DNA of 64,000 nt from Eledone cirrhosa (taxonomy: Eukaryota), in the NCBI GenBank assembly GCA_964016885.1, contig CAXHJY010000768.1, positions 62,001 to 126,000 of the forward strand. The letters are read 5' to 3'. The notes beneath the pieces are model-generated. The model was given only the letters and a program-made list of their open reading frames with translations, had not been told where the DNA came from and ran no database searches. This document shows positions 10,519 to 40,996 of this stretch, piece after piece (positions within the stretch are counted from its first letter, which is position 1; each line of letters begins with the position of its first letter). The position numbers and the translations under genes are program-made.

Positions 10519-10567
<49 letters not shown>

Positions 10568-10606
10568 GATATTAACAAATGGAAACTATATTTATAAAAC
10601 CATATT

Positions 10607-10671
10607 TATTTCATTATACATATTTCAAGGACACCAAGTTAAATTATGGTGTGCTTTCATCAGATAAAATA
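10607..10671 (-). ncRNA. Type I hammerhead motif (H1) with a partial inverted copy at about 10760-10845
   Basis: Minus strand tattttat-CTGATGA-..-GAAA-tatgta-TA-atgaaata. Confidence 0.75.
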
Positions 10672-11176
10672 TAATATAGAGCAGTTTTATAAATAAATAT
10701 TGACATACCCTTAAAGAATGCAACCATTACTGGGGTTATAAATTTATTTTCCTAAATACACATAATTTAACTTGGTGTCCTTGAAATATGTATAATGAAA
10801 TAAATATGGTTTTATAAATATAGTTTCCATTTGTTAGTATCATATTTTTACTCCAATTATTTGTTGAGTGCTTTATATCAGTTATAAAAATATTTGCTTG
10901 TTGTATCCCAACAATTTAAATAGAACTTCTACATTATATATATATATATATATATAAATTAAAAAAAAAAGTTTGTTGGGGGGTGGATTTTATATTATAT
11001 ATATATATTTTAAAGAGTTAAACAATATTCAATGAGTATATCAAAGAATGAGTTTTACAGTAGATTGGAAGCACTCTACAATGAAAATATTTTCCAGAGT
11101 TATTAATATTAAAATATAAATATTAATAAAATAAATCTTCCTGTGATCAATTAAATTTTATTATACATATTTCATT

Positions 11177-11227
11177 TTTTATCTGATGAGGTCGTACTGT
11201 TGTACCTCTGAAATATGTATAATAAAA
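11177..11227 (+). ncRNA. Type I hammerhead motif (family H2) with shortened stem II, inside a fold-back about 11110-11270
   Basis: ttttat-CTGATGA-ggtcgtactgttgtacctct-GAAA-tatgta-TA-ataaaa. Confidence 0.65.
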
Positions 11228-11268
11228 TTTAATTGATCACAGGAACATCTATTTTATTAATATTTGTA

Positions 11269-11328
<60 letters not shown>

Positions 11329-11666: not shown

Positions 11667-13412
11667 TAGTTGCGTCCATCAAGCATTCATTCAGAAAAAT
11701 TTGCGCATAATTTTCCCATACGGTGCGGGTATACATATATATTATTAGTGTATATATGTATGTATATACGGTAATATACACAGGCAGACTGCACACGTAT
11801 ATATATATATATATATATATATAGGAGAGAGTATGACCCCGACGGCAGAGCTCAAGCCGTTTCGACGGCTATTTCTGGACTAAAGTAAGAGTTTTTTTTG
11901 TTTTTTTTTCAACTCGTACTTTAGTTCAGAAATAGCCGTCGAAACGGCTTGAGCTCTGCCGTCGGGGGTCATACTCTCTCCTATTACCCACTCTACTACC
12001 CTAAATATTGAGTACTCTGGTGCGTTATGGTCCATCTGGTTCCTTACCACACCTCCTTTGTCATATATATATATATAAACATATAAATAAATATATATAA
12101 ACAAATAAACATAAATAAATATATATATATATAAACATATAAATATATATACATATAAACATAAATAAATATATATACATATAAACATAAATAAATATAT
12201 ATACATATAAACAAATAAATATATATACATATAAATAAATATATATACATATAAACATATATATATACATATAATCATATATGTATAAACATATATATAT
12301 AAACATATATATAAACAGATATATATATAAACATATATATATATAAACATATATATATATATAAACATATATATATATATATAAACATATATATATATAT
12401 ATAAACATATATATATATATATATATATAAACATATATATATATATAAACATATATATATATATAAACATATATATATATATAAACATATATATATATAT
12501 ATATAAACATATATATATATATAAACATATATATATATATATATATATATAAACATATATATATATATATATAAACATATATATATAAACATTTATATAT
12601 ATATATATATAAACATATATATATAAACATATATATATATATATATAAACATATATATATATATAAACATATATATATATAAACATATATAAACATATAT
12701 ACATATATATAAACATATATAAACATATATACATATAAACATATATATATATATAAACATATATACATATATATATAAACATATATATATATATAAACAT
12801 ATATACATATATATATAAACATATATATATATAAACATATATACATATATATAAACATATATACATATATAAACATATATATATAAACATATATACATAA
12901 ACATATATACATAAACATATATACATATAAACATATATATATATATATAAACATATATACATCATCATCATCATCATCATCAACGTTTAACGTCCGTGTT
13001 CCACGCTTGCATGGGTTTGGACGGGGGTAGTCCCACTTGAGGCAAGAGTGGTTTTCTTGCTCGCATAGGACTGTCTGGCAGGTTTTCTACAGTTGGATGC
13101 CCTTCCTAACACCAACCACGTTTACAGTGTGGCGCTGGGAGGTTTTTACACATATATATATATAAACATATATACATATATAAACATATATACATAAACA
13201 TATATATATATAAACATATATATATATATAAACATATATATATATATATATAAACATATATATATATATAAACATATATATATATATATATAAACATATA
13301 TATATATAAACATGTATATATATAAACATGTATATATATATATAAACACACACAAACATATATAAACATGTATATATATAGACACACAAACATATATATA
13401 CATGTGCACATG

Positions 13413-13676: not shown

Positions 13677-13799
13677 TTTTAATATAGATGAGATTCTACA
13701 GGACTAGAACTGTTTCATTCTTTAGAAATCATCAGGATTCCTGATGATTTCTAAAGAATGAAACAGTTCTAGTCCTGTAGAATCTCATCTATATTAAAA
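13677..13799. ncRNA. Palindrome of two head-to-head hammerheads (family H3): + copy 13736-13784, - copy about 13692-13737
   Basis: gattc-CTGATGA-t ttc taaa gaa t-GAAA-cag ttctagtc ctg-TA-gaatc; mirror symmetry about 13738. Confidence 0.85.
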
Positions 13800-19070: not shown

Positions 19071-19171
19071 CATATATATATGTATATGCAAAAGTTCTAT
19101 TTAAAATTGTTGGGATACAACAAGTAAATATGTTATAACTGATATAAAGCACTCGACAAGTTTTTGGAGTA

Positions 19172-19487
19172 GATATACGATATTAATAAATGGAAACTAT
19201 ATTTATAAAACCATATTTATTTCATTATACATATTTCAGGGATACCAAATTAAAATATGGTATGCCTTCATCAGACAAAATACAATATATAAACAGTTTT
19301 ATAAATAATGTTGACGTACCCTGTTAGATGCAACCATTATTTTTGGAAGATTATTTATAAAACTGTTTATATATTGTATTTTGTCTGATGAAGGCATATC
19401 ATAATTTAATGTGGTATCCCTGAAATATGTATAATGAAATAAATATGGTTTTATAAATATAGTTTCCATTTATTAATATCGTATATA
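19172..19487. ncRNA. Fold-back pair of H1 hammerheads: - copy 19218-19282, + copy 19377-19441
   Basis: Both have tattttgt-CTGATGA-..-GAAA-tatgta-TA-atgaaata; arms of about 130 bp are reverse complements. Confidence 0.82.
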
Positions 19488-19582
19488 TATATATATATAT
19501 ATATAGTTGTTATATAGTAAGGTGTATTATTGGTTGTGTCAAACGGTCCAATAAAATTGTTTGATTTGAAGACAATTCATTT

Positions 19583-25296: not shown

Positions 25297-25470
25297 ACTG
25301 CTTTCACCTTTAGCGGGATCTTCTGAAACTAAAAAAAATCAATCTGTGAACGCAGAAGTAAATATTTCGAAAAACGTTGCAGCCGGAAGACGATACTTTG
25401 AAATATTTACTTCTGCCTTCACAGATTGATTTTTTTAGTTTCAGAAGATCCCGTTAAGGGTGAAAGCAGC
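25297..25470. repeat. Fold-back with about 75-bp arms (25297-25372 / 25398-25470)
   Basis: The arms are reverse complements with few mismatches; each contains GAAATATTTA but no clean CTGANGA. Confidence 0.75.
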
Positions 25471-25609
25471 GATTCTTTGCTTAAACTTTAATCTGTTATT
25501 TTAATAAATATTTGCTCTAGGATTCTTATATATTTGATATATATTTAACCTTATCGAGCCCTGTTTGGATTTTAGTCTTCACACTTATTATTATTACTAT
25601 ATATATATA

Positions 25610-26950
25610 TATATATAATCAAAAGATGGTTAAAAGAGTTCCATGTATTTTATTATGGGCATTTCAAAAACAAATATCATCATGGGATGATATTTGCGTT
25701 CTCATCAGATAAAATAGGGAGACATGATATGAAGCTTAAAAAACACTTGCGAGCAGTGAAGTCTTAAATCAACATATGAAAAATAAAATTAAATCCCTCT
25801 AATTTTATTTTTCATATGTTGATTTAAGACTTCACTGCTCGCAAGTGTTTTTTAAGCTTCATATCATGTCTCCCTATTTTATCTGATGAGAACGCAAATA
25901 TCATCCCATGATGATATTTGTTTTTGAAATGCCCATAATAAAATACATGGAACTCTTTTAACCATCTTTTGATTATATATTATATATACTCCAGTCCTAT
26001 AAACTTTTCAGTGGTAATTATTTGATATTTGCATTGCTTTATTGTGCTACAATAAAACTCACCTCCTATATATATATGTATATATATAGATATCTATATC
26101 TATATATAGAGATATCTATATAGATATAGAGATATCTATATATAGATATATATATATAATGTATAAGGTGAGTAATATTGTAGAGCAATAAAACTATGCA
26201 TATATCAGATAAGTAGCACTCAACAATTGGTAGAACTGGAGTATATATTAAAGAAGAAATTAAAAGATGGTTAAAAAAGTTCCATATATTTTATTATGCG
26301 CATTTCGAAAACAACATCCTGGGACAAAAATTGTGTTCTCATCAGATAAAATAAAGTAACATGATATGAGGCCTAAAAACACTTGTTCACAAGTGTTTTT
26401 AGGCCTCATATCATGTTACTTTATTTTATCTGATGAGAACACAATTTTTGTCCCAGGATGTTGTTTTCGAAATGCGCATAATAAAATATATGGAACTTTT
26501 TTAACCATCTTTTAATTTCTTCTTTAATATATACTCCAGTTCTACCAATTGTTGAGTGCTACTTATCTGATATATGCATAGTTTTATTGCTCTACAATAT
26601 TACTCACCTTCTACATTATATATATATATCTATATATAGATATATCTATATATAGATATCTCTATATCTATATAGATATCTCTATATATAGATATAGATA
26701 TCTATATATATACATATATATATAGGAGGTGAGTTTTATTGTAGCACAATAAAGCAATGCAAATATCAAATAAGTAACACTGAAAAGTTTATAGGACTGG
26801 AGTATAAATAATATATAATCAAAAGATGGTTAAAAGAGTTCCCTGTATTTTATTATGCGCATTTCAAAAACAAATATCATCATGGTATGATATTTGCGTT
26901 CTCATCAGATAAAACAGGAAGACATGATATGAAGGTTAAAAAACACTTGT
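25610..26950. ncRNA. Nested palindromes with five alternating hammerheads (family H4): 25646-25716(-), 25875-25945(+), 26287-26353(-), 26422-26488(+), 26846-26916(-)
   Basis: tattttat-CTGATGA-stem II-GAAA-tgcgca(or tgccca)-TA-ataaaata; symmetry centres at about 25795 and 26387-26388. Confidence 0.88.
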
Positions 26951-27076
26951 GGATAGTGCAGCTTTAAATCAACATGTTCTTATATATTATGTATACTCCA
27001 GTCCTACAAACTGTAGAGTGCTTCTTATTCGATATCTGCATTGCTTTATTGTACTACAATAAAACTCACCTCCTCC

Positions 27077-27122
<46 letters not shown>

Positions 27123-27266
27123 AATAGGCAGATTCCTCTGATGTATATCAGAAGGTGTCCACAGTTAAAGAAGGTACTCAATACATAAGGTACTCAATAC
27201 ATTAGTAGAGTATAGGCATCTTTATATTATTATAGAAATGACTTTTACAGGAATAGAATTGTTTCA

Positions 27267-27313
27267 TTTCCTGATGATTTCTTGTGAATGAAATAGTTCT
27301 GGTCCTGTAGGAG
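27267..27313 (+). ncRNA. Diverged H3 hammerhead with partial inverted arm
   Basis: tttc-CTGATGA-tttcttgtgaat-GAAA-tag ttctggtc ctg-TA-ggag; stems rely on G.U pairs. Confidence 0.6.
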
Positions 27314-27419
27314 ACATTTCTATAATAAAGATCTATAGACTTACATCCCTATCCACCTTCTCCAGTCAACACTGTAAAGTGGTCGTGTAGGTGAGACAGG
27401 GAAAGACACACTACAAAGA

Positions 27420-31262: not shown

Positions 31263-31299
<37 letters not shown>

Positions 31300-31301
<2 letters not shown>

Positions 31302-31975
31302 TAATTCAAAATATTAACAAAAATAGAACTTCTTGTGATCAAGTATATTTTATTATACATATTTCAGAGGCACTGAGTTAACTTCAACAGTACGTCCTCA
31401 TCAGATAAAATAAGATGATGCATGACGGAACAAACTACCTGCATCAGTTGTTAGCTGTCGAGACACTGCATCCTTTAAGGCCTCCATGCTTCCCGAGATC
31501 CGCCAACACTACAGCTAACACATACAAACATGTACTTCCCTGACATTTGTGTATTATTCTATGTACTATATTGACGAGTTGTAGTGCACCTGAGCACTTT
31601 ACACAATAATTTCATTATTATTATTTTTTATACCCTGACATAGTAGATGGTTAAGATCTAGTCATGGTAGTGACAAAACTGAGTTTTGTCATATCTTACT
31701 CACTACCATGACTGGATCTTAACCATCTACTATGTCAGGGTATGTCATGCATCATCTTATTTTATCTGATGAGGACGTACTGTTAAAGTTAACTCAGTAC
31801 CTCTGAAATATGTATAATAAAATATACTTGATCACAAGAAGTTCTATTTTTGTTAATATTTTGAATTAATATTAATAACTCCGGAAAACCATTACTGTTG
31901 AGTGCTTACAATCTATTGTAAAACTCATTCTTTGATTTATTCATTGAACCTTGTTTAACCTTTAAATATATATAT
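31300..31975. ncRNA. Fold-back pair of H2 hammerheads (31346-31412 -, 31758-31824 +) enclosing a second hairpin (31630-31743)
   Basis: tattttat-CTGATGA-..gtactg..cagtac..-GAAA-tatgta-TA-ataaaata; truncated relatives at 1217-1388 and 8752-8939. Confidence 0.82.
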
Positions 31976-32416: not shown

Positions 32417-32819
32417 TCTGAATTTGTTTAGCAAGATTCTTTATCTGAAATCGTGTGTTGAAACCGATATTGTTATACTTTGGGAGGGTCATGTTGCCAA
32501 TAAGAAACACACGCACCAGTTGCTTTCACTTCAATTTATTATATATTTATAAATTTATAAATTTACAAATCTACAAACTTATAAATTTCTGGTTGGAATC
32601 CCCAGTCACTGAAGAGGTCACAGAGTGTGTGACGAAAGGACTATGACTATATATAAACAACTATCTGGTTGTGGAACCAACCAACCAACCAGAAATTTAT
32701 AAGTTTGTAGATTTGTAAATTTATAAATTTATAAATTTATAAATATATAATAAATTGAAGTGAAAGCAACTGGTGCGTGTGTTTCTTATTGGCAACATGA
32801 CCCTCCCAAAGTATAACAA
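32417..32819 (+). mobile_element. Fold-back insertion (arms about 32467-32596 / 32685-32823) with a hammerhead (H6, 32604-32648) in its loop and an 11-bp TSD
   Basis: TATCTTATGTT at 32406-32416 and 32820-32830; agtca-CTGAAGA-g gtcaca gagtg tgtgac-GAAA-ggac-TA-tgact. Confidence 0.8.
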
Positions 32820-33134
32820 TATCTTATGTTGTTTATTACATAACTAAATATATATATATATATATAAAGTAAAAGTCCAGGAAAAAAGAGTGCTCTATGT
32901 AGGTAACAGAGCTTAATAGTTATGTAATAAACAACATAAGGCAATTATTCCATTTACCAGTGGTTTCTTAAAAGCAAAATATTTTGCTTTCAATCAACAG
33001 AATGAAAAAAATCCTGGTCTGTTTATTGAATTTGGATTTTAAAAACAAAAAAACCTATATATATATATATATATATCTGGTGTGTTACCTTCTCAACATA
33101 TTGTATATATATGTATATATAAAAAAAGTCTAAA

Positions 33135-34131: not shown

Positions 34132-34332
34132 GTTATTCCAGGTTGAATCGGAGGTAACCACAGTAAGTAAGGTACTCAATACATAGCAGAGAATAAAAGT
34201 TTTAATATAGAAGAGCTTCTACAGGACTAGAACTGTTTCATTCTTTAGAAATCATCAGAAATCCGAGATTCCTGATGATTTCTAAAGAATGAAACAGTTC
34301 TAGTCCTGTAGAATCTCATCTATATTAAAACT
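34132..34332. ncRNA. Second H3 fold-back: - copy 34217-34261, + copy 34265-34317 (best-formed hammerhead in the window)
   Basis: gagattc-CTGATGA-tttctaaagaat-GAAA-cagttctagtcctg-TA-gaatctc; 7-bp stem I, 4-bp stem III, GUA site. Confidence 0.88.
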
Positions 34333-40216: not shown

Positions 40217-40996
40217 TATGGTGGCTGCCAACTCGTTATCGAGTATGGCCACTACTTTATATCCATGTAGGAGAACCCCTACCGAGGCGCTGAACGAGTG
40301 TAGCTTTTTAGTCCAGCCAGTGACTTGAAAACTCTGGTACAAACACTACACCTGTGACAATTATTGACACATAGTGCTGGGCCCATGGTACCATGTGACG
40401 ACAAGTGCCGAGAGATCTCCAGATATAAAGCAATGCCTGTGCCGTGAAGCTTTTATAGTGAGCAAAGGCACTGCACAAAGCCAGTCCCACTCTCTTAACC
40501 AAGATGATATTTACCAAAAAGAAGAACAAGTCAACATCATTGGATACCATCAGGGTTGCAGGTGTTATATCAGAGTTTTCCTTCACCTAGAATTCTGCCT
40601 TGACAAAGGCTAAGGGGTCATCTCTCCTCTCTCTTATATATATATATTTCATTTCATTTCATTTCATTTCATTTTACGTCCGCTTTTTCCCTGCTTGCAA
40701 GGGTGGGACGGGAACTGATTCTGGCTTGATTTCTACAGCTGGATGCCCTTCCTAACACCAACCTCATTTACAGTGAGTGCTGGGTGCTTTTTTTGCCATG
40801 GCACCTCCACGACCACTTTGCAGTGGAATGATAGAGACCCCAGTCCCTATCATCTCATTTCTACAGCTGAGTAAACTGGAGCAATGTGAAATAAAGTGTC
40901 TTGCTCAAGGAAACAACACACCACCCGGTCTGAGAATTGAACTCACAACCTTTTGATTGCAAGACCAATGCTCTAACCACTAAGCCATGTACCTCC

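What the first reader, a model, noticed from the sequence alone, without database searches (positions are those of the whole stretch)
25610..26950. Five hammerheads in alternating orientation forming nested palindromes, one about 1.1 kb with a 2-nt loop
Seen: -,+,-,+,- copies. A near-perfect palindrome is centred at about 25795, and a larger one is centred on acttgt-tc-acaagt (26387-26388) spanning about 25842-26949. The inner pair is a different sequence variant from the outer three, and units break near the same ACACTTG motif. Inference: iterated snap-back (self-primed) cDNA synthesis or fold-back repair rather than independent insertions.
Basis: partly seen in the sequence, partly recalled or inferred. 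Interest (0 to 1): 0.75.

Follow-up and report, generated by a model that had tools for sequence, protein, structure and literature searches.

The report
Penelope stumps with fold-back flank copy
The five mirror-image ribozyme motifs are ends of a very common Penelope-like jumping gene from three subfamilies that piled up in one TA repeat, and the large palindrome likely formed when DNA folded back at the middle pair and copied its neighbours backwards, an accident also seen at other copies in this genome.

Summary
Observation real. Five minimal hammerheads (-,+,-,+,-) form a 181-bp perfect palindrome (8-nt loop) and a 1.16-kb palindrome (25816-26975, 2-nt loop). They are 3' ends of a Hydra-clade Penelope-like element from three subfamilies, so at least three insertions are needed. 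Head-to-head pairs are this family's normal product (61 of 84 sampled), usually one long-ended and one short-ended arm; 27 of 49 such pairs cannot be self-copies, which points to priming from both cut ends. The large palindrome is different: it mirrors an interrupted (TA)n tract and a tail variant found only twice in the genome, and its outer right copy is an in-register chimera of two subfamilies. That needs DNA-templated fold-back copying of the flank, likely after insertion; the small palindrome was likely re-copied later. Mirrored flanks recur at 5 of 16 two-tailed pairs and 0 of 49 normal pairs. An assembly artefact is unlikely, but no spanning reads were available. The element class and its inverted ends are published, L1 shows similar fold-backs, and this scan noted both the palindromes and flank copying before on other DNA. 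Interest 0.37.

The parts
25602..25791 (-). Copy A: short-ended subfamily-alpha element end with hammerhead, joined to (TA)n on the left; identical to B over 181 nt
25792..25799 (.). 8-nt loop of the small palindrome; mostly native alpha 5' sequence read on the + strand
   Evidence: same letters upstream in L051, L052
25800..26066 (+). Copy B: long-ended alpha end; hammerhead about 25877-25943 (helix III word mutated at 25933); tail about 25986-26066 with changes shared only with E
26067..26158 (.). Interrupted (TA)n tract, left copy
26159..26386 (-). Copy C: long-ended subfamily-gamma end with hammerhead; 1 difference from D in 228 nt
26387..26388 (.). 2-nt loop; native gamma letters inside a native 5-bp micro-palindrome; the same junction occurs at one independent locus (L091)
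26389..26616 (+). Copy D: long-ended gamma end with hammerhead (core from 26430)
26617..26724 (.). Mirror image of the interrupted (TA)n tract, with 16 extra nt
26725..26901 (-). Copy E, alpha part: tail and most of the hammerhead; shares rare alleles with B
26902..26914 (-). 13-nt stretch identical in alpha and beta (helix I and core start): the crossover of chimera E
26915..26975 (-). Copy E, beta part; 5' end at the family's commonest truncation point (about -257 from the tail end)
26976..27078 (+). Piece F: beta tail only, head-to-head with E's beta part, joined to (TA)n; same layout as L119, L133, L149

Best explanation
The region is a pile of 5'-truncated ends of a Hydra-clade Penelope-like retrotransposon from three subfamilies in one (TA)n tract, and its large palindrome likely arose by DNA-templated fold-back copying from the central pair into the flank, likely after the insertions. 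Shown: element identity, three subfamilies, mirrored tract and tail, chimeric copy E. Inferred, step by step: (1) three ordinary head-to-head insertions (alpha A|B, gamma C|D, beta pair of which E's 5' part and F remain), each likely made by reverse transcription from both cut target ends at two start sites 81 nt apart; (2) a nascent DNA strand turned round at the 2-nt-loop palindrome, copied one gamma arm, the (TA)n tract and the neighbouring alpha end (about 410-500 nt), and rejoined in register on a homologous family copy on the other side; I favour left-to-right copying that landed on the beta copy in the 13-nt shared stretch and so made chimera E (about 55:45 over the reverse direction); (3) a later, smaller arm-to-arm copy made A identical to B. 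Timing after insertion, by host replication or repair, about 60:40 over timing during insertion. No function is implied: in a read-through RNA the hammerheads are predicted to be locked in duplex with their antisense copies.
For: Family: 2396 and 1442 first-look candidates and 1389 exact 36-mers of the beta subfamily; related loci L125/L126 carry an RT and C-terminal GIY-YIG ORF in the hammerhead's sense, with DKT, CxCx5C, CxxC..E and N..CxH (definitions). Normal product: 61 of 84 sampled beta insertions are head-to-head; 49 of the 61 have one long and one short end, and in 27 of these 49 the short arm reaches further 5' while the long arm holds the tail (22 by more than 50 nt, my count). Local duplication: mirrored tract; 26-nt tail word at exactly 2 places in 3.0 Gb, both here; B and E share alleles seen in 0-2 of 29 alpha copies at 5 sites. 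Chimera: E has beta letters at 9 of 9 diagnostic sites from 26963 to 26915 and no beta-only letter from 26901 outward; the 2 other exact matches to the junction word are alpha-like copies, not E's siblings. Recurrence: 5 of 16 simple two-tailed pairs have mirrored flanks scoring 12 or more (0.98% of 11,452 unrelated flank pairs do) against 0 of 49 long/short pairs; L204 mirrors about 400 nt of flank on a 23.8-Mb contig. Copying of aged DNA: long/short pairs show 59 arm differences and 0 shared unique alleles in 3224 nt, two-tailed pairs 79 and 12 in 3592 nt; A shares three rare alleles with B and differs at none. Fold prediction: 57 of 57 and 54 of 54 core bases pair with the antisense arm.
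Against: No empty or allelic site was found, so the starting state is reconstructed. Left-to-right copying leaves unexplained why B's tail carries 9 changes in 95 nt and its body 2 in 175 (p 0.002), which fits an older E as donor better. Arm mismatches are clustered outward (1 in the inner 369 nt, 6 in the next 128; p 0.0014 with a break chosen afterwards). The excess of shared unique alleles lies mostly in two-tailed pairs without a provable mirror (11 of the 12); for the 4 mirrored pairs alone it is 1 against 14 differences (p 0.20), and small subfamilies can mimic it. One of the 5 mirrored loci (L191) is not a clean pair, two (L187, L192) mirror only microsatellite interruptions, and 11 of 16 show no provable mirror. 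The window lies on a short contig (171 kb), and no read spans the locus.
Confidence: 0.66

Rival explanations
1. Overrun during insertion: the gamma cDNA (D) snapped back at the native micro-palindrome, second-strand synthesis ran past the tail into the target flank, and the strand landed on an alpha copy already to the left; E was already a chimera.
For: The TC loop is native on D's sense strand (4 of 28 gamma copies); L091 has the same junction with a 25-nt arm that starts at neither start site, so true snap-back occurs here; E's alpha part is evenly diverged (2 of 85 and 7 of 95, p 0.17); two-tailed pairs are what overrun predicts; hairpin routes are proposed for L1 and self-priming for Penelope.
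Against: Needs a separate event to make chimera E, and a later copy to give A the allele shared by B and E. The junction also fits two cDNAs annealing by 5 bp. Some two-tailed pairs share unique alleles, as if aged before copying.
Confidence: 0.17
2. One continuous iterated event: D cDNA, snap-back to C, copy of tract and E tail, in-register switch onto an alpha template, second snap-back to make A, then joining to (TA)n.
For: Both loops are native on the + strand, so one bottom strand running leftward fits both; A equals B and carries the allele otherwise seen only in B, E and one other of the 59 alpha ends counted; B has a young-looking body and an old-looking tail.
Against: B's body carries 2 alleles seen in 0 of 29 alpha copies; fresh copies rarely share such alleles between arms (0 in 3224 nt by the strict count; 1 in 2248 for beta; but 2 in 1142 nt of other alpha pairs). 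Needs a gamma event to switch to another subfamily's template, plus a prior chimera.
Confidence: 0.1
3. Fusion of two sister DNA ends after replication of one break, each extended from the long start site (L1-type foldback), resolved nearby by homology.
For: Predicts two long ends and mirrored flanks; proposed for L1 (passages).
Against: Mirrors here are only tens to about 500 nt and rejoin the other flank at once, which suits a short template switch; no copy-number data.
Confidence: 0.04
4. Assembly or chimeric-read artefact.
For: Short contig; no spanning read; the private tail stretch 25960-26010 has no exact cover in 4 of 4 runs laid, which are probably other individuals.
Against: The arms differ by subfamily-diagnostic letters found in 1389 genomic copies, by 7 scattered substitutions and a 16-nt indel; different flanks continue on both sides; the same architecture stands on chromosome-scale contigs.
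Confidence: 0.03

Closest known systems
Hydra clade of C-terminal EN+ Penelope-like elements (Craig et al. 2021, PMC8557442; passages, section 11 and supplement rows read)
   Same: DKT, CxCx5C linker, CxxC and CxH around E and N, no GxKF/Y, hammerhead, (TA)n targets, partial tandems, inverted 5'-truncated copy; the paper lists Hydra-1_Obim from an octopus.
   Different: RWI in place of RWK; tail about 81 nt instead of 30-40; no tree built; mirrored flanks were not in the passages I read.
Head-to-head inverted pLTRs with palindromic junctions in Adineta vaga Penelope (Arkhipova et al. 2013, PMC3846280; passages read)
   Same: Inverted copy, one-sided tail, palindrome at the junction.
   Different: They read the junctions as self-priming; in this family 27 of 49 long/short pairs cannot be self-copies; their examples have target duplications, here hidden in (TA)n.
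Anole Poseidon in vitro (Frangieh et al. 2024, PMC11167929; parts 1-2 of 4 read)
   Same: Two internal RT start sites define the tail; both strands are cut and extended; AT-rich targets, including the element's own pLTR.
   Different: Other clade; start sites lie before the ATG here (80 nt after the tail end) and not inside the ORF; no products with flank copies described in what I read.
[quoted passage not shown]
   Same: Core, short palindromic helix III word, long helix II; dual motifs on opposite strands 100-700 bp apart are reported.
   Different: Five in nested mirrors; helix III word broken in A and B; cleavage untested.
L1-linked foldback junctions and target-site inverted duplications (PMC11702581; passages read)
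   Same: Reverse-transcribed insert at the centre of an inverted duplication of the flank.
   Different: Somatic, often kb-Mb scale and destabilising; here short, assembled in a genome, and resolved on a neighbouring family copy.
Replication template switches at short interrupted inverted repeats (ODIRA, PMC4689423; abstract only) and quasi-palindrome correction (recalled, no call)
   Same: A pre-existing inverted repeat seeds inverted copying of neighbours.
   Different: No inverted triplication or origin is shown here.
Animal non-LTR retrozymes (bioRxiv 10.64898/2026.07.22.740005; part 1 of 5 read)
   Same: Type I hammerheads related to PLE pLTRs.
   Different: Retrozymes are head-to-tail arrays; no two neighbours here are head-to-tail.

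Membership tests
Minimal type I hammerhead | CUGANGA, GAAA and UH core with helix I and helix II | tested here: met
   5 of 5 copies; helix I 6 of 6 pairs; helix II -13.2 (A, B), -10.7 (E), -3.9 kcal/mol (C, D). Whole-motif fold z -3.4 for A, B, -1.8 for E, +0.4 for C, D.
Minimal type I hammerhead | Short palindromic helix III word allowing dimers | tested here: inconclusive
   Palindromic in C, D, E; broken by one change in A and B.
Minimal type I hammerhead | Self-cleavage | not testable with these tools
   No RNA data asked for or laid; no Rfam hammerhead match.
EN+ Penelope-like element | RT ORF with C-terminal GIY-YIG nuclease linked to these ends | tested here: met
   Motifs by inspection in L125, L126. 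Pfam gave 0 families for 4 of 4 pieces, PDB nothing significant, the homologue search none, so this rests on motifs.
EN+ Penelope-like element | Inverted 5'-truncated copy, optional tail, partial tandems | tested here: met
   61 of 84 head-to-head; two 3' ends 81 nt apart; tandem continuation into the ORF in L193.
Hydra clade | DKT motif, no GxKF/Y | tested here: met
Hydra clade | RWK motif | tested here: inconclusive
   RWI at the place in the one N-terminal piece read.
Hydra clade | CxCx5C linker, CxxC and CxH around E and N, no CX2-5CxxC or CCHH | tested here: met
   CCHH absence by inspection of the L125 ORF.
Hydra clade | (TA)n insertion preference | tested here: met
   Ends join (TA)n or (CA)n in the printed flanks.
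Hydra clade | Generally under 3 kb | tested here: inconclusive
   A truncated, internally deleted copy already spans 2958 nt, so full length is probably above 3 kb; the paper gives this as a tendency.
Hydra clade | Placement in the RT tree | not tested
   No reference proteins were in hand.
Non-LTR retrozyme | Head-to-tail hammerhead monomers | tested here: not met
   Orientations alternate.
Retrotransposon-linked foldback (L1 type) | Mirrored flank around a reverse-transcribed insert | tested here: met
Retrotransposon-linked foldback (L1 type) | Formed at the time of insertion | tested here: inconclusive
   Shared-allele counts lean to later copying but are not decisive.

The most novel reading that the evidence does not exclude
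A Penelope reverse transcriptase made most of this locus in one run: it copied gamma RNA, snapped back, read through target DNA, switched in register onto another subfamily and snapped back again. Two-tailed pairs with mirrored flanks would then be a genome-wide record that this enzyme self-primes, copies chromosomal DNA and shuffles subfamilies at the hammerhead.
Probability: 0.13. Interest if true: 0.65.

Novelty: new variant of a known kind. Interest (0 to 1): 0.37.

Why it matters
How Penelope-like elements build their mirror-image ends is an open question (PMC8557442 says so). This family separates two routes by a simple sequence mark: one long plus one short end is the usual product and often cannot be a self-copy, whereas two long ends often come with a mirrored flank, the sign of fold-back copying of DNA. 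The mark can be scored in any genome with such elements and tested with the existing in vitro system. The locus also shows how clustered copies can be recombined in register. The locus itself is most likely functionless debris.

Tried and rejected
Rfam: only hairpin-driven microRNA-type matches below gathering score, no hammerhead family. Pfam, PDB and the homologue search did not name the ORF; the atlas look-up gave no result. Public runs: best share 0.33, none holds the locus; laid runs show the family's abundance only, and absence of the private stretch is no evidence either way. Searches with both flanks found only repeat families, no allelic or empty site. A DNA search with E missed the abundant beta subfamily because common words are skipped; I first misread E as unique and corrected this. 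'E comes from a recombinant subfamily' rejected. Long self-matches beyond the element in L127 are plain (TA)n and were not counted; L125 looks mirrored over about 120 nt but in low-complexity DNA and was left out of the 5 of 16. One search skipped 11 of 33 pairs through a strict seed and was redone; the window's own rows are distorted by alignment to a beta reference and were not used. Retrozyme array, MITE and independent mirror-image insertions into a symmetric tract were rejected.

Full report
Observation. A and B are 100% complementary over 181 nt around an 8-nt loop. The large palindrome runs 25816-26975 at 94% around the 2-nt loop. Rfam finds no hammerhead family here.

Identity. The window lies on a 171-kb contig of a 3.0-Gb genome. 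D and B each draw over a thousand candidates (2396 and 1442; 40 scored each), and a 36-nt word from E's 5' part occurs 1389 times. [quoted passage not shown] Its motifs match the definition of the Hydra clade of Penelope-like elements in 3 of the 4 protein-motif groups checked, with RWI for RWK; profile searches did not name it. The defining paper lists a Hydra family from an octopus; I did not test the host, which an earlier scan note calls octopus. In tandems the ORF starts 80 nt after the tail end. Three subfamilies meet in the window: alpha (A, B, 3' part of E), gamma (C, D) and beta (5' part of E, F) (29, 28 and 32 reference copies, the alpha and gamma sets being best hits and so biased towards B and D).

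What the family normally does. I fetched the DNA around the first 100 listed of the 1389 beta matches, all on contig C1, which gave 84 distinct insertions. Of these 61 show a head-to-head junction and 23 do not within the stretch fetched. Copies end at two places 81 nt apart, short and long. Of the 61, 49 have one long and one short end (47 by a cruder rule). Among the 49, 13 are symmetric, in 9 the long arm reaches further 5', and in 27 the short arm reaches further 5' while only the long arm holds the tail, 22 of them by more than 50 nt (my count). Those 27 cannot be one arm copied from the other; two cDNAs primed from the two cut ends are the simplest source. This is inference, but it fits the anole enzyme, which cuts and extends both strands from two start sites. 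Of 14 symmetric junctions 11 sit on a native palindrome about 257 nt from the tail end. True snap-back also occurs: L091 has the window's exact TC junction with an arm of only 25 nt. Inverted copies with tails and palindromic junctions are published for this class.

What is special here. The spacer between B and C is an interrupted (TA)n tract whose mirror image lies between D and E: 92 matches, 0 mismatches and one 16-nt gap mirrored, against 82, 10 and 16 direct. A 26-nt tail word occurs exactly twice in the genome, in B and in E, and B and E share alleles seen in 0-2 of 29 alpha copies at five sites. Independent insertions cannot give this; host-side DNA was copied backwards. E carries beta letters at all 9 diagnostic sites from 26963 to 26915 and none from 26901 outward, with the switch inside 13 nt that alpha and beta share at the start of the hammerhead. 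The beta remnant plus F has the ordinary layout of a beta pair (L119, L133, L149) whose short arm has lost its end. The two other exact matches to the junction word are alpha-like copies, so the chimera is local.

Recurrence. A genome-wide pattern for two tails facing outward about 500 nt apart gave 21 matches. Five are tandem arrays; of the 16 simple ones 5 have mirrored flanks scoring 12 or more after collapsing dinucleotide runs, a score reached by 0.98% of 11,452 unrelated flank pairs (binomial p 4e-7). None of the 49 long/short pairs does (maximum 6, to which 3-4 must be added for comparison). L204 mirrors about 400 nt of flank and rejoins at a (CA)n run, L206 about 130 nt, L191 41 nt. 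Against this: L191 is not a clean pair, L187 and L192 mirror only interruptions, and pure (TA)n flanks cannot show a mirror. The pattern covers one spacing only, so it is no census.

Timing and direction. Long/short beta pairs have 59 arm differences and no shared unique allele in 3224 nt; two-tailed pairs have 79 and 12 in 3592 nt. That suggests copying of DNA that had already aged, but 11 of the 12 lie in pairs without a provable mirror, the 4 mirrored pairs alone are not significant (p 0.20), and small subfamilies can mimic the signal. A shares three rare alleles with B and differs at none; one of them (25933) is absent from E, and another (25975) is seen only in A, B, E and one other of 59 alpha ends counted. 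Left-to-right copying needs only three ordinary pairs and one landing that makes E, but does not explain the 9 changes in B's 95-nt tail against 2 in its 175-nt body (p 0.002). Right-to-left copying explains that contrast and fits the loop being native on D, but needs two in-register joins. I favour the first slightly. I ran the timing tests after reading two earlier scan notes that took opposite sides on timing.

Artefact. No run holds this locus and no second allele was found. The arm-specific, subfamily-diagnostic letters and the same architecture on chromosome-scale contigs make an artefact unlikely (about 3%).

Function. None is implied. In a transcript across the locus the two cores checked pair fully with their antisense arms, and A and B have lost the palindromic helix III word. 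No RNA was examined.

Comparison and novelty. The element class, clade, hammerheads and inverted ends are known. Foldbacks with reverse-transcribed inserts and inverted duplications at target sites are described for L1. Four literature searches (listings, plus the passages cited) showed no report of mirrored flanks at Penelope pairs or of the long/long mark, but the library lacks most subscription papers and I saw no preprint supplements. This scan has already noted such palindromes and two-ended priming in this genome and flank copying in other genomes. Verdict: real, explained as retrotransposon debris plus fold-back copying; a new variant of a known kind; interest 0.37.

Noticed in passing
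window 31298-31426 and 31744-31872: A second hammerhead family forms a head-to-head pair (129-nt arms, 98%) around a 317-nt spacer that holds its own hairpin (31630-31743).
   Followed up: no
window 11106-11277: Imperfect palindrome with a hammerhead core at 11183 that resembles the second family.
   Followed up: no
window 25298-25469 and about 27187-27330: Two other palindromic repeats flank the cluster; both are multi-copy.
   Followed up: partly
window 25975-26069 and 26722-26816: Most substitutions in the B/E tail fall on G or C (7 of B's 9 sites), several as transversions within 20 nt; possibly damage to single-stranded DNA, untested.
   Followed up: partly
L095-L186, about -258 to -255 from the tail end: 46 segment 5' ends fall in these 4 positions, in paired and solo copies alike; a fixed RNA 5' end or a hairpin stop could explain it.
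   Followed up: partly
L188/L189, L198/L199: Mirror-image tandem arrays of 185-204-nt units made of tail plus leader, without the hammerhead; they look like rolling copies of a small deleted RNA.
   Followed up: no
L168:1702-2651: A 60-nt unit in the element's 3' region is repeated about 16 times here and 1-4 times in other copies.
   Followed up: no
L091:1660-1742: About 80 nt of other sequence sits at the short start site between body and tail of a gamma copy, as if the element's own AT-rich site was hit again.
   Followed up: no
window 40926-40993 (-): Weak tRNA match (31 bits, mismatched acceptor stem), probably a tRNA-derived repeat.
   Followed up: no
window 13677-13799, 19170-19489, 32466-32823, 34198-34332, 10564-10845, 11821-11984: Further palindromes of 120-370 nt; the window is rich in them.
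   Followed up: no
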